Origin: Lingula anatina
Taxonomy: Eukaryota; Animalia; Brachiopoda
DNA length: 64,000 nt
Direction of reading: 5' to 3'
Assembly: GCA_051362555.1 (NCBI GenBank)
Contig: CM120645.1
Coordinates: 18,476,001-18,540,000, forward strand
Made by a program: the position numbers and the translations under genes. The first letter of the stretch is position 1. Every line of letters begins with the position of its first letter. A model generated the notes under the pieces. It did not search any database. It saw nothing but the letters and a program-made list of their open reading frames with translations, and was not told the DNA's origin. Of this stretch, positions 4,592 through 55,642 are shown piece after piece.

Positions 4592-4880
4592 TTCCTTCAG
4601 GATATTGTAACCCTATATTGTGATCCAAATACCGAAAATAATTTTTTCTGCATCTATTACTAACTATTCAATAATGCATCTATCATTGTGCTAGTTTAAA
4701 ACAATGAAAAAACCTTGAAAATATAAAACATCAGCGTTTATAGTTTTTCGTTGCAAGGTACATGTATAAGGATAGGGGACTCAAAGCTTTAATCGTCCAT
4801 TGAACACCTTTCTATTTAGAGGTGAGACAGCAATCAGTATGGGGCGTAACTTTATCCCTGTATAAGATTTTACCACGAAA

Positions 4881-5511
4881 ATGAAGGAGCAAGTGTCCTT
4901 TGCGAGTTGAGTACGGCGCACGCCCGCACGGCTAACGAACAAAGTAGAAAGTACGGTGGGAGTGGGTCGCACGTGCGTCACCTTCACGCCAGGAGTATAA
5001 AAGGAGTGCTCACGATGCACGCTCGTGTCTCAACAATAAACGTCGATTGTGCAACGTGTACAACAATTTTCTAATATGCCTCCAAAAGGCGAGAGAAAGA
5101 AGCTTAGAAAGCAGAAATGAAGGGAGGAGGAAAAAGTAAGAAGGGGAGAACAGGAGGCAAAATTGACGTACGCAGTCAGTACATCATCACAAGCGTGTGA
5201 GGCACGTGTGAAACAAAAGTGATGCAAACGGGAACTACTTTCGCTGTGCGTTGCATTCTCTTCATAAGTGGTGAGTGCGTGCCACGTACGCAGGTAGCAA
5301 GACAAAGAGTACAATTTTTACGGCCATCGCACCTTGCAATTAGCCTCCCTGCTTGGACGTCTCACGTGGCCCCTGCGACTCGCAAGGCAGACTTGCGCCT
5401 TTCCATTGCAAACTTTCCTGTGCCTCTACGATTTCCACGGATACTATTGCACCCAAAATTCGCAGGGGACGTACGATCCTAAAATTCGTGCGTCCGGTTG
5501 TGACCGAGGCT
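4881..5511 (+). mobile_element. Non-autonomous DNA transposon, PIF/Harbinger-like, copy 1 (left end missing)
   Basis: About 630 bp similar in inverted orientation to 54770..55394; ends with TIR ...CCGGTTGTGACCGAGGCT followed by TTA (TWA-type target). Confidence 0.7.
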
Positions 5512-6289
5512 TTAAAGGTTTCTTCTTGGCATTGATGCCTCTAGATACTTTTGTCCAATGTTGCAAAGGTCAAATTTAGCTTAAACAGATTTTGTCTGGA
5601 TTAGAAAGTGGAGGTTCCCATATTTTGCGTATTTTTCGGGGCATACAGAAATAGAGCTATATCTAAGTTGTAGTTCCGCAATCTTCAGCTTTTCAAATAT
5701 TAACTGTTTGACTTCTAAAATGTGAGTCATCATATTAATATAATTAATAATGATATTATAATATAATAGATCTTTTAAAATAAACGGCTTTATATTGATA
5801 TAGCGCATCGAAGGATAAGTATCGAAAGCACGATATCATAATTCAATATATAATTCGCGTGTGTGTGTATGCTAATGTGTGCACGCGTGATTTATAGTAG
5901 GCAAACGCATTACATGAAATGGTGATTATGTACAATGCGAAAGGGAGTTTACATACAATTGTGCACATGAAAATATGAAATGAAAAGAAGGCACGACCAT
6001 CACAGTGGTTGCAGAATAGATACTCGATTAGAAGTCAACACGTACAAATAATAGATACAATTTTTGGGACTAATTACCCTCTCCCAACCATCCCCTACCC
6101 CGGACAACCCCACCACCCCTTGAAAATATGATTTAATACGATTGCGTGCATTTAATCCAGGTGCATCCCCTGGAAGAGGTGGGGTAAACACGCATCCCTC
6201 TGATGAACTAATTGTAACTTTTAATCGCTTCACCACCAGTCCCAGACAGGAATAAACAACGCCTTTAAATTTTTCTGTCTCTTTTCATG

Positions 6290-7254: not shown

Positions 7255-8668
7255 TCACCCTACGCAGTTTTTAAAATGCAAATATGAGCAGAACATTGTG
7301 AATCCATCTCCCCATTTTGAAGGGGGGATATGGACGGGTTGTGCAAAATTTGCCTCACAATATTGTGCTAATTTTGTGTTTAATTTCTTAAAATATTTTA
7401 CCTCTTGGTGGAAATCGGAATTTTGTCTACTTAGTATTTTCTCCAGTTTGGTTTTAAAATGGTTGTATAAGAAAAAATCCCCCTTGTTGAGCTGCTTATA
7501 TTTTCGGGCAACGTACGGTTCATTGTTAAGTTTGATATCTTGTATGTAATCACTGGAGAATTGTGTTCCGCTTTTCAAAATAGTGTAAACGATTTGGTAA
7601 AATTCCCAACAAAATAAACGTTTTAATAGAACAAGGCATTCATCAAAATATTCCAAAATTACCACAAAATGCAACTCTCCCTCTAACATGTTTACGTAGC
7701 TCATCATGCGTTGTGCTGAAAAATGTCCTTTAAACCCCAAATAGCGACTTAATCGGTTCCAAGTTAGGTTGGCCATATCCCAATACTTTGGATTATCGAT
7801 AAACTGGTGTAGCTGTTTCTTCCCTTTTAGACCAATTCGTCTTCCAATATGGTTATAGTTGTAATATGATTTAAAGTATGATAAAGGTTCTCTAAGAATT
7901 GCTAAGAAAACAGTGCCATTGGGAGTTAGTTTGTGATATGCCTTCAGATCGAATTTCCCATGATCGGCCATGACATCAAATACTTCGTGAGTAGAGGAAG
8001 GATATTTAAGAAGATAATTAAGATTGGGACGTGCGGGAGCAACGTTTAAATTATCCATAAATGCATTTCTTAGAATCATTCTTGACAGTGTTGAACTGCC
8101 GCACTTAGGGACTTTGATAAATACAACGTGTTGCTTTGGCTTACACGTTCTCCTTGATTTGTTCCAAGGTTTGAGGGATTTCCTTAATTTTCTAACGCAT
8201 TTTGCAATCTCTAAAGACTTCAGCGAACCATTTGTTTTGGGGCTCAAAGCAACATTCTTCTTCGCTGCAGACCCACCTGCAGATAACACAGGTTGATGCG
8301 TGCTATTAATTGTGCTGTCATGTAACAGGTATGGTGACTCCGTGACGTCACTGACACTTTGCCGAGTTTCCCAGAGGTTCTTCTCTTTCAAAGTTACCGT
8401 TACGGCTTTCTGTTCTAAAGCAACCTCCAACGTCATTGATCTAAAAAGAAAATAAAAACATTCTTGCCATAAATAAATATTGGCATCAAATCCCATATAT
8501 AATATTGGGTTTTTGCTCTTGACGTTATTTTTATCACTGTTAATGTACTTACGGTTTCGGAGGATTCCATGAATGGGCACTCATACCGGCACTGCTGAAC
8601 CAGAGAAGAAGTCCACCGGCGAGCATCGCTGTTAGAAACAGACCTAGAATACCTTTCTTCGCCATCAT
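7255..8668 (-). CDS. Galactose-3-O-sulfotransferase-like Golgi type II membrane protein; complement(join(7255..8440,8553..8668))
   Basis: Exon 1 MMAKKGILGLFLTAMLAGGLLLWFSSAG is a signal anchor ending CC|GTAAGT; 112-bp intron ending ttttctttttAG; junction in frame (CC|A = Pro). Exon 2 has the 5'-PSB motif VFIKVPKCGSSTL, 3'-PB motif ILREPLSYFKSYYNY, and LEYFDECLVLLKRLFCW, typical of the Gal3ST family. Confidence 0.9.
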
Positions 8669-9344: not shown

Positions 9345-9676
9345 AGGGCCCATTCAGAACAAACTCATCCGAGGACAAGCTGATCCACGGATCAAATATT
9401 TCCGACCTAATTGAAAGCTTGCCGCATAACCTTTCGATAAACACTGAATAGATTGCCCGCGGGGATTACGTGGTAAGAGTGCATGGAGAACAGCGGACTA
9501 ACAGATCCGCGGATTAAATATGGCGAGCCACTAAAAAAGCTTGTCGCTTAATTCCCGATTAGACACTGAATAGGTCCCCATCTAGGATTACGAAACAAGC
9601 ATTCAAGTGGGTCGGCCATATTTGATCTGCGGATCCGCTAGTCCGAGGATCAACCTTGGTTGTTAATACGGCCTTA
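9345..9676. mobile_element. Degenerate MITE-like repeat with internal inverted segments; related partial copy at about 46729..46856
   Basis: Starts GGCCCATTCAGAAC (cf. GGCCACATTCAGAAC at 46731); segment AAATATGGCGAGCCACTAAAAAAGCTTGTCG...GACACTGAATA matches the reverse complement of about 46800..46856; several GATCCGCGGAT-like palindromes. Confidence 0.55.
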
Positions 9677-27925: not shown

Positions 27926-30900
27926 TAATTTAGGCTAAATTATAATTGGTATTGTTTAACTTCACATATATATGTATATGCATTTTACAGCCCTCTCCAA
28001 AGCCGCCACGCAGTTTCCGTCGCCTTGCCCGCTTCGTCGTTATCTTCTTCAGAGTGTGGCGTCTGCACTCCTTCAAGATACGAACCACTGTCCAGGCCCT
28101 TACTACTTCCACGGGGAGCAATGCTAGAGACGTGGATCTCCTATTCGATAAAAGTATTTTCAAGGCAAATAAAGAGGTAATAGTATTTCACCTACCTAGT
28201 TAATGATCCAAGAAGTACACAGTGTATCCTACGATACCCGATGTCGTTCAGTGACAAACTTCTTGTGCACTTTTGGTGTGGTCTTCACGTTGTTCTTGCC
28301 GCAAAATAATAATAATAATAATAATAATGATAATAATCGACCGTTCAATTTTGATGCGACGTATGACGTATTTTTAAAGTATTTCTAATTGCATCTAATC
28401 TCTGCGTCTCTGTGTTTTAATGCGCGCTTTCATGTTGTGCCTGGTGTAGTATTTTTGTGTATATCGGGTAAATATTAAGAGAGCAGTAGTACAGTAAAAT
28501 GATAAAATGAATCCCAGTGTTTCAAAAACTGCTGACTTTGGGGCATTCCACGTACGATTCTTTTAAAGTATTACAGTTAATTGAAGTATACTGTTTAAAC
28601 CAAAGAAAATTATTTTAATATGCAACGGTTTCTATTCCATTTTGATATCTGTAGATGCGTCTATCTGGTGAAACGATTCGTATTCTCAGAAAAAGACCGG
28701 TTCAGCGGACTGAGGAAGAACTGCACAATGTAGGTACACGTTATCGTGAATTTCAGGTTTTACTGGAAATCAATGGCTTTCATAACTATTTAAGGAGGCA
28801 TAAGTATTCAGAGATTTCATCACACCCCACAGTCAACATTTTATATTTTCTTTTCGAATAAATGGACGTGATGTTTTCTAGCGTGGTGTATAAAGCATGC
28901 AGAAAATCAAATCAAGGAATACATTTGTAACATACGGAGGTCGTTTTTGCGCCTTTCATCACTGACTGTTAGCTGTTGATAATGTTGGCTGAAAAAGTCA
29001 GTAGGTCTCTTAATACACTGACGTAAAACAAAACAAAAAAAGGAACAAAAAATTAATGAACAGTCATTTTCTTATCCAGTGTAACAAACAGAACGGTTCT
29101 GTAAACGGCGATATCTATGTAAAGTTGTATGAAAATAAAGGAAAAAGGGTCAGTACATCTCAGATTTTGGCTGTTCAACCTGTTATTCCTTCAATTCAAT
29201 AATAGAAATAATGATCTGCACGTATTGATTTTTACCAGGTAAAGGTGGCATTAATGAACTATCCCTCCATCTCCGAGTTCCCGGTGCAAATGCAGGAAAT
29301 GATAGTGAGGAAGGCGTGGTACGACACGTAAGTCACTTGATGAGTCCACGGGGGTGGTCGAATTCAATTTTGATATGGAAGGCTGTAAATGTCTTGATTA
29401 AAAACGGTGGGTTTACTCTGAGTAATATTTGTGTCAATTAGCAGATAAAGTAGATATAAGCAGAGGTATTAAACTCATCTGACAATTTTGTTATTAGTAA
29501 GCATAAGATACATAACATAACATTATATATTTATGATTAATCTGTATCCTTGGTTTCTACATTTTGCGATAGGATTGACGTAGAGCGAGTTATCGTCAGG
29601 GAGGGACAGAGACCACTGTATTTTTACTTCATCCTGTCTGGCACTGGTAGGTTTTTAAGTAATCTCTCTCTATCTCTCTGTCTCTATCATTCTCTCACAC
29701 AAAAACGCACAAACAAAAAGCACGCATGCAGGGGTAGAAGACACGGGTTTGAAATTGACACCTTTAATCTAGATTCCTATTTTTATTTCCATAAATGGAA
29801 ACGCAGAACTAATGAATGTTTCGCCCAGCTTGACTTACTCCCCGGTATTCCACACTCACTGCATCAAACGACTCTTTTCAGTTGTTAAAAAAGTAATGGA
29901 CGATGAGAGAAAGCAATCCAGAACATTGGCTTTCCTTTCGAGAGGGGAAAGTTTCGGAGATCAGGACATTATCGAACAGAGACCACGTGACTGCACGATC
30001 ATTGCTATGGAAACAACTGAACTCATGTGTATGTCTGCTAAGGTTAGTATCCCGCCATCTTTTTTTTTTTTGTTTGTTTGATTTGCCATATCGTGTTGCT
30101 GCAGATCCAAATAACAGACTCAATTCATTACGCTTTCATATTTAGGAATAACTATCATTATTATTATATATATAATCTTTTTTTCTAGGATTTTGTTGAG
30201 ATTTTCCAGTCCGGAGGTTTGAAGGATGTAAACGATCCATTCTTCCAGTAAGTTTTTGAAGCTTGTTTTTAATCTTGTACACCTGATAAGTTATATGAGT
30301 TAAATATTTAAGTTCGTTTTAAAATAATTGGATGCTATTCTTGTATGCACTCTGGAAACAAATTATTCTTTGATAATCATACACGGATAAAACTGAATTA
30401 TCAATTTTACCTGCCCCGAAAAATATGCAATTTATGATTTTTTATAGAAGTGTCAGCTGTCTGCAAGGGTGGCCCCTTCACTTGCTTGCCAACAACCCCA
30501 AAAAAGCTGTTCTCAGGTTTTTTAAGTAGGTAAAATTTAATAAAATGCAGATGATTTGATATGCTACATGTAGTACTTTTGATTTCCAAAGTAATCTTAC
30601 TGTATTGATGTGTATAATTTAGAATTTGTATATGAATGATGCATGGATGTGTATACCCTTAATACATGTACGTACCTGTAATGTAACATTTGGAAATATT
30701 GTTAACATATTAAGGTCACACACAAAGATATTCTATATTTCAGGCGCGGTATGGTACTCGTCAAGGATAGCAGCTCGTCTGACTGGCTTTACATCGTAAA
30801 GACGGTAAAACCTTGCTTGGCCGCTCGTTTTCATGAATCATAATATAATGTTCGTGTCAAGGGAGTGTACGATTGTGGTTGAGTTCGTGGTGGTTGGGGT

Positions 30901-39662: not shown

Positions 39663-42258
39663 ATGATGGGAACAAAAAATGCAGACAAGTCGGCAGAGAA
39701 GGAAGGCGCTCCGATAAATGGTACGCAGACGCCGACGGCGGATGGAACGACTCCACACCACGAGCACCACGAGCATCACTTCATGGGGGACATCACAGTG
39801 GACGACGACGTGCCCTCCCGCGGGAACTGGACGGGAAAACTGGACTTTATAATATCATGTGTTGGGTACGCCATTGGTCTGGGGAATGTATGGAGGTTTC
39901 CTTACCTGTGCTACAAAAATGGTGGGGGTGAGTGTCCTGTGCCAGAGCCATGTGTGTCCCTTAGCTTTGTCTCAGTTGTCTATGTATACCTGTTGTGATA
40001 CATTTATATGCTCGAGCTGTTCATGAAACTGATACATTTTTGCAGCCAACGTATGTTCTTCCCAGCTGTGCTTTATGAAAGCAAATGTTGTAGAAACTAC
40101 CTGGTGTACAAGTTACACTGCGCACACAAAACCGCTAAATATTGCTTGTTTCTAAATTGTTTCTTCATTGACCCTCATAAAAAACACAGTTTATTACAAT
40201 TTTGAATCGTGTGAAGTAAAGCTACGACGTTACGCTGAAACTAATTACGCAACAGAAAGCATTGTAAGTATGGAGCCTTATTTCCCCCATTCTCTGTCTA
40301 TAGACCGTTTGTCATGTAAAAGTGTGTGCCTCGCATTCTGTATGTTACGCGTCCATTCAGGTGAAATATTGGGCATATTAGGTACCGTATCACTTATTTT
40401 CTGAGTCATCTATCAGCATGACTAGCAAAGATAATGACTGAAGGCAGTAATTCGCACTTCGTGTACTGCTTTTTCTTTTATAGGAACACTGCGAATTATC
40501 ATTTTCCCATTTTCAAAACACACCTCCATCCCCTACAGCTGTGAGAGCGGTTCGTGTGTGCTGCGGGTTACTGCCTGAGTGCTCGGCCGTGATTTACACA
40601 CTTCCTTGGTGAAGTGGTTGGTATGAAAAGGGCTTCGACATGCCATTTCTTCACCTACACCTGAAGCACCAGAAGCCGAATTACAGATCGCAATATATCA
40701 CACAACTGGAATAGGGTAGCCTGATGTGTTTAAAATATCTTATGTATTTGTACGTTGGGCATGTGTGTACAGGCGTGCTTATATGCCTTGTAAGACCGAG
40801 TATAAATAGAGCACTGAATATAACTTTTAAAAAATACAAGTACTCCAGTCAGGGTTCACACTCCGGGAGATCATAATTGTATATAGACGGTTTCACTGCG
40901 CAACTCTCAATTAAACTTTTTCTTTCTTTTAAAGCTAATTTTGAGGACAAATTATTTAAGGAAGTCAAAAGTCAGAAGCATTAATAACAAAAGTAGACTG
41001 TAGCAGCAGGTAGAAAGGTGACATTTTGTTCATTGCAGGTATTTTCGTCATGTAAAATATTTACGGCGTCTTCAGATTTACCATGCCCCAAAGACAAATA
41101 CTAAGTCGCCGAAGATGATTCAGCTTAGTCTCAATACAATAATTGTTTCGTATCAATCGGATTGATTCAACGTCGTCATTTTAGACAGCTACGGGGATTA
41201 TAGTGACAAATTTCGCTGCAATTTGCGCTTATAGCGCCTTAGTGATTTAGTTCAATGGTGATTTGGCGGCCACCCGTCGAGAGTCTGCGTGGCTTGTGAA
41301 GAAAACAGTCAATATTTTCTACAACTGAGTGTTAGGACATTGAATTGACATAACGCGGAGCTATGCAATGTTACTGAAGATATCGAGGACCCTCTCGCTA
41401 GTATAAGCTGCAACTTTAGAACTAAAGTGTGTTCATACCGACAATAAAAGAATGGGCTCTGAAACGTTCTATTTGACATCTCCAGGCGGCTGTAGTTATG
41501 AAATAGTCACCAGTGGCGAGCCACCGCATGTTGTACTCTACTTAACAAGGTACTTCGCTGCCGTGTTAGGGAACCTCCATAATCACAATAATCAATCCCT
41601 GCCCTCAAATAGAAATCTTGTGAACCTGTTTTGTTTTCTGTTGATGTTGACTTACATTTCACGTATACGGCATTGCTTTTCCCTGGTATCTTATTAACTC
41701 GGAGCTGGAAAGAAAAGCACGCTTGATTTGATTCAATTTCATTTGTGTTGTAAATAAACAAATATCGCTTTACATAATAATTGTCCAGCAACTGTTCAAA
41801 AGGGCTGTCACAGTTTGATAAACAACTGGACTGTTTAAATCCTAAATCGGGTTTCTGTCGAAGCTGGGTAAGATGAAGTTTCTATTAAGTCCTCGTGTCC
41901 TTTTGTAAGCTCCCTCCAAATTCGGCAGCATTCTATACAGACAGGTATAAGTAAGCTCAATATCCAAATGCTCATTCATTTTGCACGTTCTTGTATGAAA
42001 CATAGAAATGGCTATTCATCACAAGAAGTCATACTCGTACCCAATATGAAAAAAAAAGAAGACATACACTCCAAGTCAAAAATACTTTCAGCAATCGTTT
42101 TCTTGAGAATACTTTAACAATGCTTTTTTTATTTTTACTTGTAAAATTTCCTTTGATGGTATGCGGTATTTGCATCTTAAACAACAAGTTTGTCAATGTC
42201 CTTTTCATAAATATATTCTGCCAAACATTATTCTTGAAAACGAATATGATATTGCACA

Positions 42259-42302
<44 letters not shown>

Positions 42303-43516
42303 TCGCAGTATTGAGAGAGAGAGAGAGAGAGAGAGATTGTGCATGAATATGAAACGATATATTGAATAAATTTTCTAAACAACCTCCTACAGTTGTTGCT
42401 GTTGGAAGTTTCCGTCTTTAAATCTCGACAAGAGGCAGGAATGTGATAGATTTTACTTTCTCATTTCAGGCGCATTTCTGGTTCCGTATTTCCTAACGCT
42501 GTTCTTTGCTGGAATTCCTATGTTCCTCCTAGAGTCTTCAGTAGGGCAGTACCTGAGTATTGGGGGACTGGGCGTGTGGAAACTATGTCCTATATTCAAG
42601 GGTAAGAAAAAAAGAATGTTAAGATAATTAGTTGGATAGCTGCCGTAGACTTACTCGCTCTCTCCTTCCCCTTTTCTCCTCGAGTGCAAAAATAAAAGGG
42701 ATGTGCGATAAAAAACTTCCCCTCAGACATTTTTATCAGATAGTTGTTTAAACTCACGTGCCTGATGTATCTTCATATAATAACGTTTAGAATATGAGAA
42801 GAAGCGTTAAGGTGGTACTGAACTAAAGCTGAATTTGCCGGCTAAAATAGCCAAACATAACGAGCTAAATACCTCTACGCTTTGATGAGGTAAAGTGCGG
42901 AGGATGTTGTAAAGAGTAAAGAGATACATAAAGCATTGAGCAGATGGTGAAGGAAAAAAGAGAAGGATTTAGTTACATATCAACTTTAAGTTTGAAGGTA
43001 CTCATAGCTATGAAAACCGTGTAAAGACACAGTACGGTTGTCACACGGTGCCGTGCGCTCGTTGCTGATGGTTGATAATGAATTATTCAAGTTATATATA
43101 TATATGTTTCATACATTTCTAAGGTCCCCAAAAACCTTTATGTACCTATTTACACGAATCTACATTAACAGAAGGAAAATGCGCCCTTGCTGAATCATTC
43201 AGATCATTACAAGCGAGGCACTTGTGACCATGCCGAGAAGGTTTACTTCCACTAAGTTAAGTTATCGTTACTAGAAAGGCGAACAAACTTTGTTGAACTA
43301 TTACTAGCAAATGCCACCCGAGCACCCCACTTTTTTATGGGACTTGCAGCCGATGAAGGTCACTGGTTGACTGAAAAGCGGTTCCTGCACCCTTTCCACC
43401 CCACTTTCTCTACTGCCAGGGTTTCTTTTAGCCCACGACCGGAGACGAGATCGCGCAACCGAATTAATCAAATATGCAATACAGGAAAATAACTTAAGTT
43501 TTGTTTCAGATCGCTT

Positions 43517-43552
<36 letters not shown>

Positions 43553-46500
43553 GTCCAGCTTAATTCAACATTTATTATTTTAGTAGAGTTTAGATTATGT
43601 ATAAAAAGGTTATCAACAGGCCTGAGTTGCTTGGGTTGCGTGGTCATCAGGCGTAGTTCTCGGAAGCCACTTCAGTCATGGACTGGATTCTCATGCCTAG
43701 ATCGATCCATTTGGATCGATCTAACTCCCTAGGGAGTCTCACTAAATTGCTATCAACTAACCGGCTGATAGTAAGCTGATGAAGAAAACTGTACACAGAA
43801 ATATATGTTATTTGAAGTCTTTTGATTCATTATTTTTTCCGAGTGTTATATTAAATGATTAAAAAAAATATCCAATGGCATAAACGCGAGCTTGAAAGAA
43901 TGAACAGCCGCTTTATGATGCTGACATCGTTTTATTTGGGATAACGGTTCAAATTCTCCTTGCTATTTTGCTTACCCCGTTTTGTGCGTATTGATTCCTA
44001 AATGAAATAAGACGTTGTCAAATTATTCCATTCACTATTAGTTCTATTTTAAAAATATCATCAGTTTGGTGACTGACAGTAGTAATGATATTCTTTTATC
44101 ACGAACTGCAAAAAAAAATTACTCATGAGATATTTCGATGGACCATCGGTTATCTTCATCAGTCGTTGGTGGCGTTGTGTCACAAAGTCGAGAGTAATTA
44201 GTACTTCCCTTTCCCCTAATGACGCGACTGCGACACTAAGAGAGAAAGTGCAAGCAAAAACCCTACAGAAAGAGAGTAACTGGAGAGTTAGGGGAATAAA
44301 AGAAGCCATCTGGAGCAGGAAAACACCAAGCAATATTAATAGATACCTCTACTATGTCCTCTTATCAGTATCACAACTGCGTCATCAGGAGAGGGGGGGG
44401 GGGGGGTAGCACCAAATACTTTGTGACAAAACGCCACCTGTGTCATTCAGCGACTGATGAAGACAGTTGATCTTCCATCGAAATATTTCAGGTAATTTAT
44501 TTGCAATTTGTGATAAAAGAGTATTATTACCACTGACAATTCCCTTTATGTGTGTTCATTTCTACATAGCAGTACGAAACTGCACTAAAATAAGAGAAAA
44601 CTGGCCAGTCATTTTAAATGCATCTATTTCTATATACCATTTTATATACATTTTAAGATTCGTACGTATGTGCTTTATTTTGCAGTTGTCAAATCACCCC
44701 TGTCTTGTAAATACTTAATTCCATCTCTATCAGATGTCAAGAAAGGAAATGCCAATTTCTGTCTTATAAATATGCCTCTTTAGGTTCCTAATGAACTTTA
44801 GAAATCCACCGATCGAAGATAATATATATGATCGTCCTTTCACGCCCAATATATATTATATCGACACTCAGTACTCTCAATGAAATATAAGTGAAATATT
44901 TTTTTTCACTGACAGGTGTTGGATACGCAGCGGCCGTGGTGGCTTTCTGGCTAAATATTTACTACATCGTGATCCTGGCCTGGGCACTGTACTACCTCGT
45001 GAGTTCCTTCCAGGCCGTACTACCCTGGGCGTCCTGCGACAACTGGTGGAACACGGAATGGTGTCGTTCAGACTACGTCGCCCCAAACTGCACAACTGCG
45101 TTTCAAAACCAGCTGAATGAGACCCTAGTGACGATCAACGCGTCCTTGATCAGCAGTCTCGGGGGCACCGATGACGTAACAGTTTACACGTCACAGAACT
45201 CCAGTTATATAAATGCCACTACCACTGCTTTGTGCCAGACCAATTTTACGTCTCCAGTCAGAGAGTTTTGGGAGTAAGAGCAATTTTATGTATGCAGCAG
45301 GCTCTATTTTAGGCGAAAAAGAATGAACTAATCCCAGGAGGAGTTTTTTAATTTTTTGCGTGTTTGTGATATTGCCCTGAAGATCAAATTTAGTGGTTAT
45401 CCAGTGTTTAACCATAAATCAGTTTTATACACGAATGAACTTATTTCGATATATTAATTATTCAGTTTTCGTCTTTTTAAGGTACACATTGAAATATTTC
45501 AGGCGTAATGCTCTACGTATCACGAATGGTATAGACGAACCAGGCAATATCAGATGGCAGCTGTCGCTGACGTTATTATTTGCCTGGGCGCTGTGTTACT
45601 TCTGTATCTGGAAGGGCGTAAAGTGGACGGGGAAGGTAACCCAATCGACTACCTCGATACTACACTTACAATGTGATTTTTTGATACAAAACTTCGTTTA
45701 TTTGTGTATTTGTTACTTTATAATTATTCCTTTATCTATATATTTATTTGTCCACATTTTTTTTATCTCTTAATTTGTTAAAAAAATTTTTTTGAAAAAT
45801 GAAACACAGTAAACTTAGGTCCACGACACTCGAAAAAGTCTTTTTGACCTTTAACAAGCGAACCAGGTATTTACAAATGCTGCGAAAAACTGGTTTAAGG
45901 TTATTTAAAGGTCACTTAATATGACCCTTATCTTGCGACCGTTCTTTTTGTTACATGTGCTTGTAGATGGTATTGTTTTTGTTTCAGTTTCTTAATTCAA
46001 TCTCGAGTTTTCAAGATACTTTCAATCTCTTTTAGGTTGTGTACTTCACGGCCTTGTTCCCCTATGTACTTCTGTTGGTTCTGCTTATACGTGGCGTGAC
46101 CCTGCCTGGAGCCTCCCAGGGCATATGGTTCTATATTTACCCGAAGATGGAAAAACTTGGAGACTCTCAGGTAAGGTGCCTATAATGTGGTAAGTTAATG
46201 CCAATAGAATTAATATATCTGCGAATGATTGATTCACGTGTGTAAATATGTAAACTGAAGCTATTAGTCAATCTTTTCAGGCGGTGTTATTAAAATCTTT
46301 CAGTGATGATGGTTATATATTCAATAAAGTGGTGGCTAAGCTCGTTATCAAAATTAGTGTACACACACCGTGACACAAAATAAATGCAAATACCTTTGTT
46401 TCATCATTTTAAGGATGTTGTTTTCTTTTATATATAAAAAATATATATATAAGGTATGGATTGACGCTGCCACACAGATCTTCTTCTCGTACGGTTTGGG

Positions 46501-49500
46501 TCTCGGTGCTGTCATTGCGCTGGGAAGCTACAATCGCTACCATAATAACGTCTACAAGTAAGTCATAAGAATTTTGCATGGTTGCTAGATAAAACTTGGT
46601 GTATGTGTAAGCTATGCCTGGAGCAACGGTCTATGTATAAAAAACATGTCTACGACCAGCTGTGTTCGGCGTTTGGCGTGACTAGACCGTCTCGCCAGAC
46701 TGTCGTACTCACACTGTTCTCTCAGTCTTAGGCCACATTCAGAACAGTGGAGTAACTAGTCCGAGGGTCAAATATTGAATACTTCCCAACCGGATGTTTA
46801 TTCAGCGTCTATTAGCGGATTAGACGGCAAGCTTTTTAGTGGGTCGCCATATTTGTCCCCTGTTTATCTATTGTAATTGTAAAAAAGCTGGAAGCATGAT
46901 GAAGAAGTATGATTTTAGCGAAGAAAAACGAATGAAACGGATGCGATCAAGACATGACAATGCAAATGTCAAATTTGTTGTACTGTATATCCACTAATAT
47001 TTATTGTTCGTTTTCTTTGTTTCAAATTGGCTAAGCAACATCATATAATACTACTAATATTTAAAATTTTGATACATATAACAGACCATGTGATGACACG
47101 TTAACCTGCGGACCCGGATATCAATATTAAATTGATTTTGTGGATGATGGATGATATGTGATAATTTTCTCTTTTTTTTTTTCAGAGATGCATTAATAGT
47201 TTGCACAGTTAACTCGTGTACAAGTATGTTTGCAGGGTTTGTCATATTTTCGGTAGTAGGTTTTATGGCGGAGCAACAACAAAAGCCTGTGAGTGAAGTG
47301 GCAGCGTCTGGTGAGTTCCATGCGGTGTATTTAGTAAAAAAATCATGTCGTTAATTTGCCTTGTTGTATTCAAGGTTTTGAAGCGCTGACGCCGTTTTGA
47401 AATAAAAGAAAATGTTGAAAGCATACGGCAAATTTAAAATAGATTTTGAACTACAAAACATCCTCGAAGTTAAATGCAAACTGTTGTACAATATTATAAG
47501 GTATGCTTTAGTGCTCTATGCATGTTTAAGGTTTGCTTATAATCATTTCCAATTGTTATCAGCTTTGAAGTAAAGGTCATATAACATTCAGTTTGCTTTT
47601 CTGTGTTACTAAAAACTAGAGTAACTGCTAGAATTATGGACAAAAGTCTTATGCCAGCTTTTTGCCTGTTTGATCTTTACAGCTGTAAATTATTGTATTG
47701 TATCTGAATGCTTTAAAATATATCTTTTTTTTTCGTCTGTCTCTGTAGGAATGAAATGCTTTTGATTTTGTCAGTACAAAGCATCGCCTTTGAGGCCTGG
47801 TTCCAGCAGACCTGGGTCGACCTAACTAAGCACAGTCGATCTCCACATTTCGCCTCATTACGGTTGGTTCGCCGTGCTCATTGTCACTGGATACGAGGTC
47901 CAATGGCGAGCCATTCAAACGGCACATCAAAATGGTTCAAAATAAGCGAGATCCATCCAGCGTCCACTTGAAACATGCCTCTAGACGAGTAGTTTGTATT
48001 CATGTTAGCATTTCAGACTGCTTAACGTGGCTAATAATAACGTTTAGTTTGTGGAAAATAGGGCTCAGTTAAATTTGATGCCATTATATTCCGCATGATT
48101 TTAGGTCCTGGGTTGGCTTTTCTTGCTTACCCTTCTGCTGTGGTTCAGCTGCCTATATCTCCGCTGTGGTCAGTACTTTTCTTCACGATGATTCTATTTC
48201 TTGGACTTGACAGTCAGGTAACGTAGCCCAAACAAACAAGATGCATGTTCTACGTCACGATACGGGGCAAACTCACCTAGATTACTCTTCCCGATGTGGT
48301 GTTCCTTTGTGTAACTAATGGCACCCTGTTCAGAAAACTAACTGGCTTAGCACAAGATGATAACCGGGGAGCTTTACTGGTGCTGGAGACACCGGCCCAA
48401 ACCTCACAACTGCAGCTTCTGGCTTCTGTTCTAACCTGGTCATCTCCTGTCTTGTGACCTTCATACCCCGTAATGCTTGAACTGTTGATCTGGTTTGATT
48501 TCTGGAGAGTTAATGTTGCTTTAGCTTCTTTCAGTTTGTATTTTGTATTATTTAATAATCTCGACTTTAATTTTTTGTCGTATATGCCTTTTCGATAGAC
48601 ACTTATATCCTCTTTCTAGGCCCTGGTCTAGCATTTCTGGCCTATCCATCGGCCATAGTACAGCTCCCTCTCTCACCGCTTTGGGCAATCCTCTTCTTTC
48701 TTATGATTCTTTTCCTTGGCCTCGATAGTCAGGTAATCTTCACGGTTTCAGTGTCGGATGAATCAGATGAATGTCTCTTATCCTTTACGTGCAATTGAAT
48801 GTTGTGTTTTAACGATGATTTACATAATGTACCTTTTCAGCTGGTGATACGTACTAGAATAATATTACTGTCTATAAAAGCTGATGATATAAGCATGTTA
48901 TTACTTGCGAAAAAATATTTTTGCAATTAATTCTATTGCTCTGATCGTTTGTGAATTTGTTTGCGCGTTTGTGAGTTTGTGGTAAAATTTCTGTCCGGCA
49001 GTAGAGGCCATAATTTTAGAGATTTTCGTTTTAAATATTTTTGTTGATAGATGATAGACCCAGAATGAACTATTTTTTTCATAAGAATTGTGTTTTATGA
49101 CAGCTATGGATAGGCAAAATCGTGCATGATAGATACAAGTAACTCCCATGGGAGTATATCATACATGTAAAGTATGTATACCAATAGAATGAGGGTATTG
49201 GGGATTCTCCATCCACGCACCCCCGTATACATGTAACTGTCTCCCTTATTTCATGGTTCTATTATTGCATTATATATTTTGCAAGTCTGCTCTATTGAGC
49301 AGTTTTATTTATATATAACAATTACAATGAAACCAAAAATATGAAGACTGATATTGTTGTGTAGTAGCATCATGTTCAGCTTTGAATTAGTTATTCATGT
49401 TACATTGTTGAAATGTTAAAACCAACTATAAAAAACAAAAACGAATAGGCTTAAGCATAATATGCAGAACTCGCAGAAACGATATTCAGTTTATCTATAT

Positions 49501-52500
49501 GCATTTAACTGTATATATCTTCCTGTTTCAGTTTTGCACAATGGAAGGTTTTATCACGGCATGTGTGGATGAATGGCCACGTGTACTACGGAAGAGAAAA
49601 GAGATTTTTATTGCAGTTGTCTGCCTAATATCATATTTAATTGGCTTAGCGTGTATAACTGAGGTACGGGATGGTCATTTTTAGCCTTTGTAGCCATTCA
49701 ATCGGTGTTTTTCTTTAAACAAAATCCCTTGTAGTGAAAAGCTAAACATCTGGAGTCAATTTTCAGCCGTATTACATGTATTTCAATAGTTTGACATGAT
49801 CATGCGTTTAACATTACAAAGTATGGCAGTGATTGTAAAAATGCTTTTCTGCACAGCATGTGGTGAAACGTTTACCAAAGTGAGGTTTTTTTCAGAATGA
49901 CACATGGAAAAGGGGGCTCTGATGTGGATACTGATTTCGATACCCACTTTCTTTTAAAACAAAAAAGTACTTTTCAAAGCATACCTTTAGCTTTAAGTGT
50001 TTTTACAAAGTTCCTTTAGTGAAACGCCGTTTCAACCATGGTTATTAAGGCGAGGATGACGCTAGATTTGAAATGTGCTTTGAAAATATTTTCGTTCTGA
50101 TCTACGAGTGATTAAAATAATCCTTTTCAATAACTTTCAAATTATTTTGGCAATTATTTGGCCAATCATGAATAATCATGTTTGCTACTAGAAGCAGAAA
50201 GCATGGCGTTTTGTTTGGTAGCTTGTTGGTTATTTTCAATGTTTTGTACATGGACTGTAAGACTTATTAAAATTAAGCAAGGTAAGGAGCATGGGCTACT
50301 ACAGCGTCTTTAAAAACGAACTTTTCAAAAATTAGTATTCACGACAATGTTGGGTCTATTTTCTTCCAGGGTGGAATGTACGTTTTTCAGCTGATGGACT
50401 ATTACTCTGCAAGCGGAATGTGCTTACTGTTCTTGATCTTTTGTGAATGCATCGCATTCTCTTGGGCTTACGGTAAGTAAAAATGCAATCATATGTACAT
50501 ACAGATTTCATTAAGTCCTAAAGGATGGATTTTTAGACAAACGCAGTTCAGCAAAGCTCTTCCGTAATATTCTTTTACGTTTACTGCGTACATATTCCAT
50601 GTGAGGTATTTATTCTATGGTGTGTTTAAATCTCTGACTTAAATAGTTGTATTGTAAATGAAGAAAAACGCCTTATATCTTAAACACCTCCTCTGAGTGT
50701 TAAGAGCTATCGACACTGAACAATTACAGTTTAAAAAAAAATCGCTTCTGTTATTATTTTTGAACCTTTCTGTTGATTGGATGGTATAAACTGACACAGC
50801 GATTGCACGTGAATTTTCTCTCTAATTCTAATCATATTAGCGCCACAGGGGTATCATTTTAACAAACGTACCAGAAACAGAGTTTGTTCCTAATCAGGGA
50901 TATTATTAAGACGGGCTCTCTGCCCCATGGTTGGAGTTTGAGCTGGAATGATATTGCTACAAAGCCTGCAGCTTGGCCTTAACGCAATTCTTTTGCCACT
51001 GATGCTGTATTCATTGCGCCAAATTATTTCAAGGTGCATTTGTTTCTTTGTAAACTGTTTGTGACTGTTTATGTTCAAATGTCGATAACCTACGAGTATG
51101 TAAAACCCTGTTCAAAGTATGCAGCTGAGTTGTAGAGCATACCCTGTATTTGTGCAGTAAAGGAAAATACTGCAAGTTTACTTTTAGTCAAAATATTACT
51201 TCAAAACATTTACAATTTGACAATTTTTCACTTTGGCTGTATTTTTGAGGCTTTAGTATAACGGTAGTTTAGTACCATTAGATGCTACAATAATTTATAA
51301 CTTCATCTGCGTACCATTTGTTTGATGCACATTTTAGAATACTGGTCCACAAAGGCATGAGACATTGTGCGCACACCTTTGTATAGTATTGGGGATTTTG
51401 TTCATGTATACTATCCATTGTTTATTAAGAAAGTTCATAGGGTTGGTTTAACGACGAAATCGTCTTTGGGCTGTGTTTGTAATGATTAAATATAACATAA
51501 GTGTTCCAACCTGAAACAACACAATCTGAATGTATCAAGTATTTAATACATGTCTCATATATTAGTACTTTTACACCGCCTCTTCGTCTTTCAGGCGTGA
51601 ATCGTTTCTACGATGACATCAACGATATGATAGGTTACTATCCTTGTCCGTTTTGGAAATACTGCTGGTTGATATTTACGCCTCTTATTTGTGGGGTAAG
51701 CTCACTCATACATAATGTCCATTTGACACTAACATCGTATCCCACAATACCTGAATCAATAAGAATTACATCTCTCAATAACATGCGTGAGTAACGACAA
51801 AATGCTAGTGACATGCCCCCTTTAGCTGAAAGGGTGCATATTTATGTCTGTGGTTCGTTGAATGCAGGGTAATTCTTTAAAAATCATTCTTAAACGTTTG
51901 CTGTGATGCATGGCTCTAAATAAAGACAGACCACTGTTGCCTTATTGCGACGGATCAATTTAACGCAGATCATAAGTTTGTCACACCTAACGCAATTGTA
52001 TATAATTCCTGATACATGCACCATTATTTTTCTATTTTAACTCAAATAAACGAAGAATGTGCAAACTGAATTGAAAATGCACTTATTAGTTGTATTTCAC
52101 ATCTAATCAAGCGGTGACTTTTTTCTAACCAACTGAGGTACGTTTAAAGTTGTGATTCTAATAAGTTAAGATAACACACATATTTTCATTATTTTACATG
52201 TATCCCGGTAGTAATATCTTTGTCTTTTCTCTTCTTAGGGTGTCCTGATATTCAGTATAGTACAATATAAAAGCCCCAAATACTTGGACTATGAATACCC
52301 CTGGTGGGCTGATATGATTGGCTGGTTTATGGCACTCTCGTCAATTCTTGTCGTGCCTTCGTACATGATTTATAGGCTAGCCTCAACTCCGGGAGATTTT
52401 AGATCCGTAAGTTAACTTGACATTAAATGCCAACTTGACGAAATTCTACTTTCTTTAAATTTTGCAGTATGTTATGCTAATGGAATGTGTTTAAAAAAGC

Positions 52501-52772
52501 ATTCAGTAGATTTAAATATTTCAGATATGACCTTCAGGGTGATATCTATATTGTTGTTGTTCGTCTTTGATTAAAAATACATGCTACCTGGGTCAGGCAT
52601 TAATGAAGCAAATGTGCACTTCGGTAAATGTTGACTGAAATATTTTTGTTTCTATTTATTAAAGAGATGCAAGGTGTTGTTTCGCCCAGACATCGACAGC
52701 ATCAGGCCAGACAAAGGAGAACCGCTGTCATATACACCCATGGCGCCTAAAAAGTGTGACACACAAATTTAA
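39663..52772 (+). CDS. SLC6A1: Sodium- and chloride-dependent GABA transporter (GAT-1-like, SLC6): join(39663..39927,42470..42601,44916..45273,45503..45635,46036..46170,46454..46557,47186..47310,[48105..48217 OR 48620..48732],49532..49663,50370..50472,51595..51695,52239..52406,52665..52772)
   Basis: All junctions GT-AG and phase-consistent. SLC6 signature [24 protein letters not shown]; GAT-1-type blocks [62 protein letters not shown] and YGVNRFYD. Orthology call is from motif recall, not phylogeny. Confidence 0.93.
42255..42336. repeat. (CA)n and (GA)n microsatellites
   Basis: Visible runs in transporter intron 1. Confidence 0.95.
48105..48217 (+). CDS. SLC6A1: GABA transporter alternative exon 8a (EL4 + TM8)
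   Basis: gattttAG|...|GTAACG, 113 nt, phase 1 to 0, [38 protein letters not shown]. Confidence 0.92.
48620..48732 (+). CDS. SLC6A1: GABA transporter alternative exon 8b (EL4 + TM8)
   Basis: tctttctAG|...|GTAATC, 113 nt, phase 1 to 0, [38 protein letters not shown]. Confidence 0.92.
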
Positions 52773-54447: not shown

Positions 54448-54769
54448 CTGAAATTATAGACATATAAAGAGTTATCTATGTAAGCTGTTTTCAGTATAAA
54501 TGTTTCATCCCAGGCGGTACATTGAACAACGTTTTAGTCAGAATGTGTATGCCATACTGCATTATTTAACAGTGCATTTTAACAATTAACGGTGGGAATT
54601 TTTTTGTTTGTCTCTTCTTTACAAATGTTGATTGTTCACTAGAAATTCGCTAGAAAACTTCTTATTTATCTTTTAAACAAGGATGCTTTTGAAACATTCC
54701 CTCTGAGGCAACACAAACCATCACCAAAACATTAAAATGCACGTTTGTATTTGTTTGAACCTTGCCTGA

Positions 54770-55642
54770 AGCCTCGGTCACAACCGGACGGACGGATTTT
54801 AGGATGCGGTAGAATCCGTGGAGTTCGTAGAGGTTGATGAAAGTTTGCAACGGAAAAGCACAAGTCTGCCTTGCGAGTCGCAGGGGCCACGTGAGATGTC
54901 CTTTCAAACAGGGGCGCTAATTGTAAGGTGCGATGGCCCTGGAAACTGTACTCATTTCTTGAGCTTGTCTTGTTACCTGCGCACGTGGCACGCACTCATC
55001 ATTTATGAAGAGAATGCAACGCACGGCGAAAGTAGTTCTCTTTTGCTTCACACTTGCCTCACACGCTTGTAATGACGTACTGACCGTGTACGTTGGTTTT
55101 GCCTCCTGTTCTCCCCTTCTTTCTTTTTCCTCCTCCCTTCTTTTGTGCTCTCTCAGCTTCTTTCCCTTGCCTTGTGGAGGCATTTGAGAAGCTGAATTGA
55201 GCGAAATTCGAATTTTTTAAAAATTGTTGTACATGTTGCACAATCGACGTTAATTGTCGAGGCACGAGTGTGCATCGTGAGCACACTTTTATACTCCTGG
55301 CCTGGGGTGATGCATGTACGACGCACTCCCGCCGTGCTTTCGACTTTGTTCGTGCACCGCACTCAACACGCAAAGGGCACTTGCTCCTTCATTGCTTGCG
55401 ACGTGCGTCTTGGACCACGCACGTCTCACTTTCGAACTTCTCGCGAACTCCTAGGGAGGGGAGCAGGTTACGCTGTTTGCAGATTATTCGTAGAAACTTT
55501 TGAACATGTCCAACATCCTCCGTACGTGCTTACGGGTTGTCTGCAAAACTACAAATCTCAAGAAGGACTTGCGCGGCACATGCGATTCTGCGCAAAATTT
55601 GGACGCAAAAAGGCCGTAAGAGCCCGTACGGCCGGTTGTGAC
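54770..55642 (-). mobile_element. Non-autonomous PIF/Harbinger-like element, copy 2 (nearly full length)
   Basis: Left TIR AGCCTCGGTCACAACCGGACGGACGG; right end CCGTACGGCCGGTTGTGAC, cut short at the following MITE; similar to 4881..5511. Confidence 0.78.

What the first reader, a model, noticed from the sequence alone, without database searches (positions are those of the whole stretch)
48105..48732. Tandem duplicated, probably mutually exclusive EL4/TM8 exons in a GAT-1-like GABA transporter
Seen: two exons 402 bp apart, both 113 nt, both with intact AG/GT sites and phase 1 to 0, encoding the same 38-aa segment. By hand comparison 12 codons are identical, 21 differ only synonymously and 5 differ in amino acid (V/I, I/L, S/A, V/I, T/L); the flanking introns show no visible similarity. 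Including both exons, or neither, breaks the frame. Established: in SLC6 carriers this segment is extracellular loop 4 (part of the outer gate) plus TM8, whose L.LDS residues help form the Na2 site. Inference: an old duplication with both copies under purifying selection, spliced mutually exclusively to give two transporter isoforms with the same Na2 ligands but different EL4/TM8 packing (8a has polar S and T where 8b has A and L). Vertebrate SLC6A1 has a single exon here as far as I know; I cannot say whether the invertebrate case is already published.
Basis: partly seen in the sequence, partly recalled or inferred. Interest (0 to 1): 0.85.

Follow-up and report, generated by a model that had tools for sequence, protein, structure and literature searches.

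The report
Swappable exon in lampshell GABA transporter
The GABA-transporter gene of the lamp shell Lingula carries two old, intact copies of one exon that cannot both be kept in frame; RNA reads use the second copy or skip both, so the first copy is likely a minor alternative that probably changes the transporter only slightly.

Summary
In detail: two 113-nt exons, 402 nt apart, with 12 identical, 21 synonymous and 5 changed codons. The gene is the GAT-1 orthologue of the brachiopod Lingula anatina. RefSeq already models both forms (X1 = 8a, X2 = 8b). Silent sites are saturated while the peptide is preserved, so both copies were long under selection.

RNA support is one-sided. In four finely binned runs, 16 reads leave exon 7: 11 go to 8b, 5 skip both copies, none goes to 8a. 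Mutually exclusive use is likely, but the 8a half was not shown here.

The five changes lie at naturally variable columns and spare the Na2 ligands; only 8a's Thr445 is unusual. No second species with this pair appeared among 375 mostly arthropod proteins, none from another brachiopod. No steric or RNA-structure lock was found; frame shift with decay is the likely filter.

The scan noted five copies of an apparently equivalent exon in an Owenia SLC6 gene (unchecked here). Verdict: a real new member of a well-known kind, modest interest.

The parts
39663..39927 (+). Coding exon 1 (start codon to TM1-TM2 region)
   Evidence: Gene model; matches RefSeq protein by tblastn; outside the stretches on which RNA was laid
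42470..42601 (+). Coding exon 2
   Evidence: outside the stretches on which RNA was laid
44916..45273 (+). Coding exon 3 (TM3 and long extracellular loop 2)
   Evidence: joint 45273-45503 in X4 and X7
45503..45635 (+). Coding exon 4
46036..46170 (+). Coding exon 5
46454..46557 (+). Coding exon 6
   Evidence: joint 46557-47186 in X7
47186..47310 (+). Coding exon 7, common upstream exon (TM7, EL4a); its donor is read joined to 8b and to exon 9
48105..48217 (+). Exon 8a, residues 418-455 (EL4b, loop, outer part of TM8), V430 I435 S440 V441 T445; equals RefSeq isoform X1; no splice joint seen here
   Evidence: zero depth in 4 of 4 runs; about 190 unplaced letters in the bin that holds it in X7
48218..48619 (+). 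402-nt GT-AG intron between the copies, too long for steric exclusion
   Evidence: under-50-nt criterion from PMC5740500 passages
48620..48732 (+). Exon 8b, same segment, I430 L435 A440 I441 L445; equals RefSeq isoform X2; spliced on both sides in reads
   Evidence: joints 7-8b (9 reads X8, 2 reads X9) and 8b-9 (2 and 3 reads)
49532..49663 (+). Coding exon 9, common downstream exon (rest of TM8, TM9)
50370..50472 (+). Coding exon 10
51595..51695 (+). Coding exon 11
52239..52406 (+). Coding exon 12
52665..52772 (+). Coding part of exon 13 with stop codon; read depth continues to about 53700 as 3' untranslated region

Best explanation
The Lingula GAT-1 gene carries two old, intact tandem copies of the 113-nt exon for EL4b and outer TM8; reads splice exon 7 to copy 8b or skip both copies, and copy 8a is likely a minor, tissue- or stage-restricted alternative that would give a transporter with nearly the same function. 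Shown: either copy completes the same 658-aa frame; 8b is joined to exons 7 and 9 with 8a left out; silent sites are saturated while 33 of 38 residues are kept. Inferred: 8a is still used somewhere; one-per-message is enforced mainly by splice-site competition plus decay of the frame-shifted both/neither products; the duplication arose after the brachiopod line separated from the sampled nemerteans, molluscs and annelid; the five changes adjust helix packing or lipid contact rather than ion or GABA binding.
For: Selection: pS 0.83 against pN 0.08, Fisher p 3e-14; 16 of 20 fourfold sites differ; neutral drift of one copy to a smaller distance (0.5 per site) never gave fewer than 11 changed residues in 5000 simulations. 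RefSeq X1 and X2 (XP_013412849.1, XP_013412850.1) differ only at these five residues; both differ from the window at residues 113 and 230, so both exon peptides are identical in a second sequence version. Joints 7-8b 11 reads, 8b-9 5 reads. Na2 ligands L450, D453, S454 (GAT1 L392, D395, S396) are the same in both. The five sites rank 1, 2, 3, 11 and 13 of 38 in variability among 47 relatives (permutation p 0.001); 441 and 445 lie 174 and 134 degrees from the Na2 face on an ideal helix. Both copies share ILFL at 447-450, found in 0 of 105 other distinct segments. Intron of 402 nt, GT-AG sites, no helices beyond shuffles.
Against: No read joins 8a to a neighbour: 0 of 16 exon-7 donor reads (about 10 independent starts; upper 95% bound about 17-26%, hand-computed), and no such joint was listed. 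The tool drops human-like reads silently, so the blank is weak, but it is no support. How RefSeq X1 is supported could not be seen. Five reads from 3 starts in X9 skip both copies, more than the 2 that join 8b there, so the filter is leaky. Thr445 occurs in 0 of 102 other distinct segments, which could be relaxation as well as adaptation. Each copy is as close to some non-Lingula segments (5 differences) as to its twin, so the dating rests on one four-residue motif. No other brachiopod or phoronid sequence was among the named hits.
Confidence: 0.62

Rival explanations
1. A regulated functional switch: both isoforms are made in different cell types or stages and differ clearly in turnover, ion leak, lipid dependence or inhibitor sensitivity, with Thr445 as the key change.
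For: Both copies kept through saturation of silent sites. Thr445 aligns with Ser387 of mammalian GAT1; a hydroxyl residue there occurs otherwise only in the vertebrate and acorn-worm sequences fetched. EL4 takes part in the closed outer gate (PMC10352132 passages). Ion transporters are enriched for such events (PMC9741552 passages).
Against: Four of the five changes are states also found among orthologues; the sites are the most variable columns and spare all invariant ones. No 8a expression seen.
Confidence: 0.17
2. 8a was once used but has recently lapsed; 8b is in effect constitutive and RefSeq X1 rests on stray reads or on prediction.
For: 0 of 16 exon-7 donor reads go to 8a and its depth is zero in 4 of 4 runs. 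Thr445 is unique among 102 segments. The X7 trace could be unspliced RNA, which is seen in both neighbouring introns in X8.
Against: Intact splice sites and no stop; identical peptide in the window and in RefSeq; 8a keeps the commonest state among relatives at 430 and 440, and the commonest non-glycine state at 435. Coverage is low and two studies supply nearly all gene reads.
Confidence: 0.13
3. The exon pair mainly serves unproductive splicing: skipping both copies makes a decay-bound message and so sets transporter level.
For: Joint 7-9 in 5 reads from 3 starts in X9 against 2 reads for 7-8b; it puts a stop 13 codons into exon 9, four junctions before the end.
Against: One run only (0 in X8, where 7-8b has 9 reads); all five reads have one orientation and the tool marks the letters between as 'not known'. 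It does not explain why 8a keeps its peptide.
Confidence: 0.06
4. The second copy is an assembly or haplotype artefact.
For: The species is polymorphic (reads differ from the window at about 2 in 100 coding bases) and the RefSeq set holds a near-identical stray C-terminal fragment of this gene.
Against: 28% divergence confined to silent sites, unrelated introns, both copies in a second sequence version, and reads in the intron between the copies.
Confidence: 0.02

Closest known systems
RefSeq Lingula anatina GABA transporter 1 isoforms X1 and X2 (XP_013412849.1, XP_013412850.1)
   Same: The same gene and the same exon pair: X1 is the 8a form, X2 the 8b form.
   Different: Automatic models with no visible read support or comment; two residues elsewhere differ from the window.
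Tandem duplicated exon substitution events / homologous mutually exclusive exons (PMC9741552, PMC5740500; passages read), e.g. SLC12A1, SLC25A3, SLC39A14, CACNA1C
   Same: Equal length, same phase, homologous peptide inside a folded membrane domain, length not divisible by three (60% of human clusters per PMC5740500).
   Different: Only one of the two bridging joints is shown here. No SLC6 gene turned up in the supplement text searched for either paper, but those files may not hold the complete lists or may use other identifiers.
Mammalian GAT1 (SLC6A1; PDB 7y7v, 7sk2, 8gnk)
   Same: Best structural-database match (826-839 bits against at most 695 for other SLC6 carriers); segment aligns without gaps to residues 361-397.
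   Different: One sequence for this segment in the solved chains and in the three vertebrate GAT1 proteins fetched; that vertebrates have a single exon here is recalled, not tested on genomic DNA. The Lingula loop EL2 is about 49 residues longer.
Owenia fusiformis GlyT-like SLC6 gene with five copies of a 113-nt EL4b-TM8 exon (scan note e1-7275443)
   Different: Another paralogue and phylum, five copies instead of two; an AI note that I could not check.

Membership tests
SLC6 / GAT-1 (SLC6A1) subfamily | Sodium:neurotransmitter symporter domain PF00209 | tested here: met
   777 bits for both isoforms
SLC6 / GAT-1 (SLC6A1) subfamily | Closer to GAT1 than to GAT3, BGT1, TauT, CRT, GlyT or monoamine carriers | tested here: met
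   Sequence scores against PDB chains, 826-839 bits against at most 695; no tree was built
SLC6 / GAT-1 (SLC6A1) subfamily | Na2 ligands G59, I62, L392, D395, S396 and substrate tyrosine Y140 | tested here: met
   G68, I71, L450, D453, S454, Y149 by the alignments; residue roles from PMC10352132 passages
SLC6 / GAT-1 (SLC6A1) subfamily | Sodium- and chloride-coupled GABA uptake | not testable with these tools
   Needs expression and uptake assay
Mutually exclusive tandem exons (criteria of PMC5740500) | Similar length, same frame, homologous sequence, intact splice sites | tested here: met
Mutually exclusive tandem exons (criteria of PMC5740500) | Read from upstream exon to second copy, bridging the first (7-8b) | tested here: met
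   9 reads in X8, 2 in X9
Mutually exclusive tandem exons (criteria of PMC5740500) | Read from first copy to downstream exon, bridging the second (8a-9) | tested here: inconclusive
   None listed in 8 runs; low depth, listing threshold of 3 reads, silent removal of human-like reads; RefSeq X1 implies it
Mutually exclusive tandem exons (criteria of PMC5740500) | No copy-joining reads unless frame-shifting | tested here: met
   No 8a-8b joint listed, and the joined form would shift the frame anyway
Steric-hindrance exclusion | Donor to branch point under 50 nt | tested here: not met
   Intron is 402 nt; branch-like motifs lie 53-68 nt before 8b, over 330 nt from the 8a donor
U2/U12 incompatibility exclusion | One copy flanked by minor-spliceosome sites | tested here: not met
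   All donors read as ordinary GT sites by eye; the U12 consensus used for comparison is recalled, and no scoring model was run
Docking-site / selector RNA structure exclusion (PMC6071210) | Conserved competing intronic base pairings | tested here: inconclusive
   4 perfect helices at or below -14 kcal/mol against 2-9 in 12 shuffles; best -17.7 against -15.6 to -21.0; conservation could not be tested without a second genome

The most novel reading that the evidence does not exclude
The 113-nt EL4b-TM8 exon is a recurrent duplication hotspot of spiralian SLC6 genes (two copies in Lingula GAT-1, five reported in an Owenia GlyT-like gene), and splicing uses it to retune the outer gate and scaffold helix; Lingula's 8a form, with a threonine where mammalian GAT1 has Ser387, is a cell-type-specific GABA transporter with distinct kinetics made from a single gene.
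Probability: 0.17. Interest if true: 0.58.

Novelty: new member of a known kind. Interest (0 to 1): 0.3.

Why it matters
If 8a is expressed, this is a natural five-residue swap in EL4b-TM8 of a GABA transporter with all ion ligands fixed, a ready pair for asking how the outer face of the scaffold helix affects transport. With the Owenia note it would suggest repeated, independent duplication of one SLC6 exon. I found no paper on such splicing in a GABA transporter in the searches named below. The kind of event is common in ion channels and transporters, the pair is already in RefSeq, and the changes are mild, so the surprise is limited.

Tried and rejected
No whole genome is held for the window, so other SLC6 genes of the species and relatives' genomic DNA could not be searched. 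The run search listed no indexed RNA holder; 8 of the 9 same-species raw-read runs were laid and X3 was not. X1 and X2 had almost no reads of the gene; X5 and X6 had 9 and 5. Read depth in the intron after 8b is mostly a 35-nt repeat at 49040-49074 plus a few unspliced reads, so an alternative 3' end there was dropped. Same-exon isoform pairs in other species: among 375 of 432 fetched proteins with a full segment and 60-residue flanks, 1088 pairs had near-identical flanks; only the Lingula pair differed by more than 2 residues, and the six pairs differing by 2 join different species or an unnamed record. Ornithodoros X1/X2 differ only at residues 27-35. Three proteins with two copies of the segment (P0080, P0198, P0311) have them 283-530 residues apart and look like fused or duplicated gene models, not tandem exons. 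Competing RNA helices: none beyond shuffles. The structure model gave secondary structure only, so burial was estimated from an ideal helix; no fold search was run. The representative-protein search and the protein atlas gave no answer, so distant SLC6 paralogues, including the Owenia gene, remain unexamined. Literature: searches listed no paper whose title or abstract start describes this event; two searches found no mutagenesis data on these five positions. The library lacks most subscription papers.

Full report
Observation. The two exons are at the stated coordinates, each 113 nt, bounded by AG and GT, 81 of 113 bases identical and 402 nt apart. A 13-exon gene model from 39663 to 52772 gives a 658-residue protein with either copy. 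With both copies the frame stops after residue 458, with neither after residue 430. The introns on either side show no similarity beyond shuffles. No other exon of the gene is duplicated in the window.

Identity. Exon 3 matches Lingula anatina GABA transporter 1 at 99%; the next relatives, nemertean proteins, match at 48-50%. Against solved structures the protein scores 826-839 bits with mammalian GAT1 and at most 695 with other SLC6 carriers. RefSeq holds two 658-residue isoforms, XP_013412849.1 (X1) and XP_013412850.1 (X2). X1 is the 8a form and X2 the 8b form; both differ from the window at residues 113 and 230, so they derive from another individual or assembly in which both exon peptides are unchanged. 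The pair is therefore on record as an automatic annotation. What supports X1 could not be seen.

Selection and age. Synonymous sites differ at 0.83 per site (saturated) and non-synonymous sites at 0.08 (Fisher p 3e-14); 25 of the 32 differences are at third positions. A copy drifting neutrally to only 0.5 substitutions per site never kept as few as 5 changed residues in 5000 simulations (minimum 11). Both copies were thus constrained for most of their history; this cannot exclude a recent lapse of one. Both share ILFL at 447-450, absent from 105 other distinct segments, which points weakly to duplication within the brachiopod line; each copy is, however, also only 5 residues from some foreign segments. 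Among 375 of 432 fetched proteins with a usable segment, no other species showed a same-exon isoform pair. That set is mostly arthropod, holds single nemertean and annelid models, no other named brachiopod or phoronid, and sees only annotated isoforms, so it is weak evidence of absence.

RNA. Nine same-species raw-read runs were offered and eight were laid, 6-30% of each being read. In one search (X8, X9, X5, X6; 129-nt bins) exon 7 joins 8b in 9 reads of X8 and 2 of X9, 8b joins exon 9 in 2 and 3 reads, and exon 7 joins exon 9 directly in 5 reads from 3 starts in X9. Depth over 8a is zero in all four. So 0 of 16 exon-7 donor reads go to 8a; an upper 95% bound is about 17% by reads and 26% by independent starts (hand-computed). 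In one search (X1, X4, X7, X2; 317-nt bins) no joint touching 8a or 8b reached the listing threshold of 3 reads; X7 has about 190 letters in the bin holding 8a with empty bins on both sides, which may be spliced or unspliced RNA. The tool removes human-like reads without notice, so the blank on 8a is not proof of silence. By the read criteria given in PMC5740500 (passages), one of the two bridging joints is met and the other is open.

Protein consequence. The segment aligns without gaps to GAT1 residues 361-397. The model places a short helix at 425-430, a loop at 431-435 and TM8 from 436. The Na2 ligands named in PMC10352132 (Leu392, Asp395, Ser396; passages) are L450, D453 and S454 and are the same in both copies. 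The five changed sites correspond to GAT1 V372, I377, A382, I383 and S387. They rank 11, 2, 13, 1 and 3 of 38 in variability among 47 relatives (permutation p 0.001), and on an ideal helix 441 and 445 face away from the Na2 side while 440 is lateral. Ser and Ala at 440 are both ordinary (59 and 43 of 102 segments). Thr445 is the one unusual state: 0 of 102, with Ser in 3 segments, from vertebrate and acorn-worm proteins. I infer small effects on packing or lipid contact; no data on these positions were found (PMC13763465 passages, concern other residues).

Mechanism of exclusion. The 402-nt intron rules out steric exclusion under the 50-nt criterion. The donors look like ordinary major-class sites (comparison with the minor-class consensus is from memory). 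Perfect helices in 47311-49531 are no stronger or more numerous than in 12 shuffles, so a docking-site mechanism of the kind described in PMC6071210 (passages) has no support, though conservation could not be tested. What remains is splice-site competition with frame shift and likely decay of the both/neither products; the skipped form seen in X9 fits an imperfect filter.

Comparison and novelty. Tandem duplicated exon substitution is a well-described kind and recurs in ion channels and transporters (PMC9741552, passages). Searches of the held supplement text of PMC9741552 (1 file) and PMC5740500 (10 files) found no SLC6 gene; the complete event lists may not be among those files. Six literature searches (listings only) showed no paper on this event.

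Verdict. Real feature, correctly described. Best reading (0.62): an old exon pair with 8b as the main form in the sampled RNA and 8a a likely minor alternative of nearly equal function. A clear functional switch (0.17) or a lapsed 8a (0.13) remain possible. New member of a known kind, already modelled in RefSeq; interest 0.3.

Noticed in passing
window 47310 to 49532: Exon 7 joined directly to exon 9 (both copies skipped) in 5 reads from 3 starts in run X9, none in X8, X5 or X6; frame-shifting.
   Followed up: partly
window 48620-48732: Reads of study P3 show 8 fixed differences from the window in 360 nt of exons 7, 9 and 10 but none listed in 8b at depth about 8 in X8. About 2.5 would be expected (hand-computed, chance about 0.08): a weak hint of extra constraint on 8b.
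   Followed up: no
window 44916-45273: Extracellular loop 2 is about 49 residues longer than in rat GAT1, has low model confidence and carries six N-X-S/T sequons.
   Followed up: no
window 39753-39782: Histidine-rich run in the cytoplasmic N-terminus (residues 31-40).
   Followed up: no
window 46726-46855: Intronic repeat that draws most RNA reads in all four runs, with opposite-strand joints; a partial inverted copy lies at 9516-9572. Looks like a short dispersed element.
   Followed up: partly
window 4880-5512 and 54769-55393: About 630-nt dispersed repeat, 76% identical, in opposite orientation.
   Followed up: no
window 7258-8580, minus strand: 441-codon open stretch matching galactose-3-O-sulfotransferase PF06990 (E 6e-31).
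   Followed up: partly
window 29773-30078: Exon-like stretch with a cyclic-nucleotide-binding domain match PF00027 (E 2e-07); gene not modelled.
   Followed up: no
P0032 (XP_013412866.1): RefSeq 114-aa 'GABA transporter 2-like' is the C-terminal part of this same protein with one change; the window holds only one copy of those exons, so it is probably a duplicated piece of the RefSeq assembly.
   Followed up: partly
P0081 (Callipepla squamata): Quail GAT1 model repeats about 125 residues upstream of the exon-8 segment; probably an assembly or model artefact.
   Followed up: no
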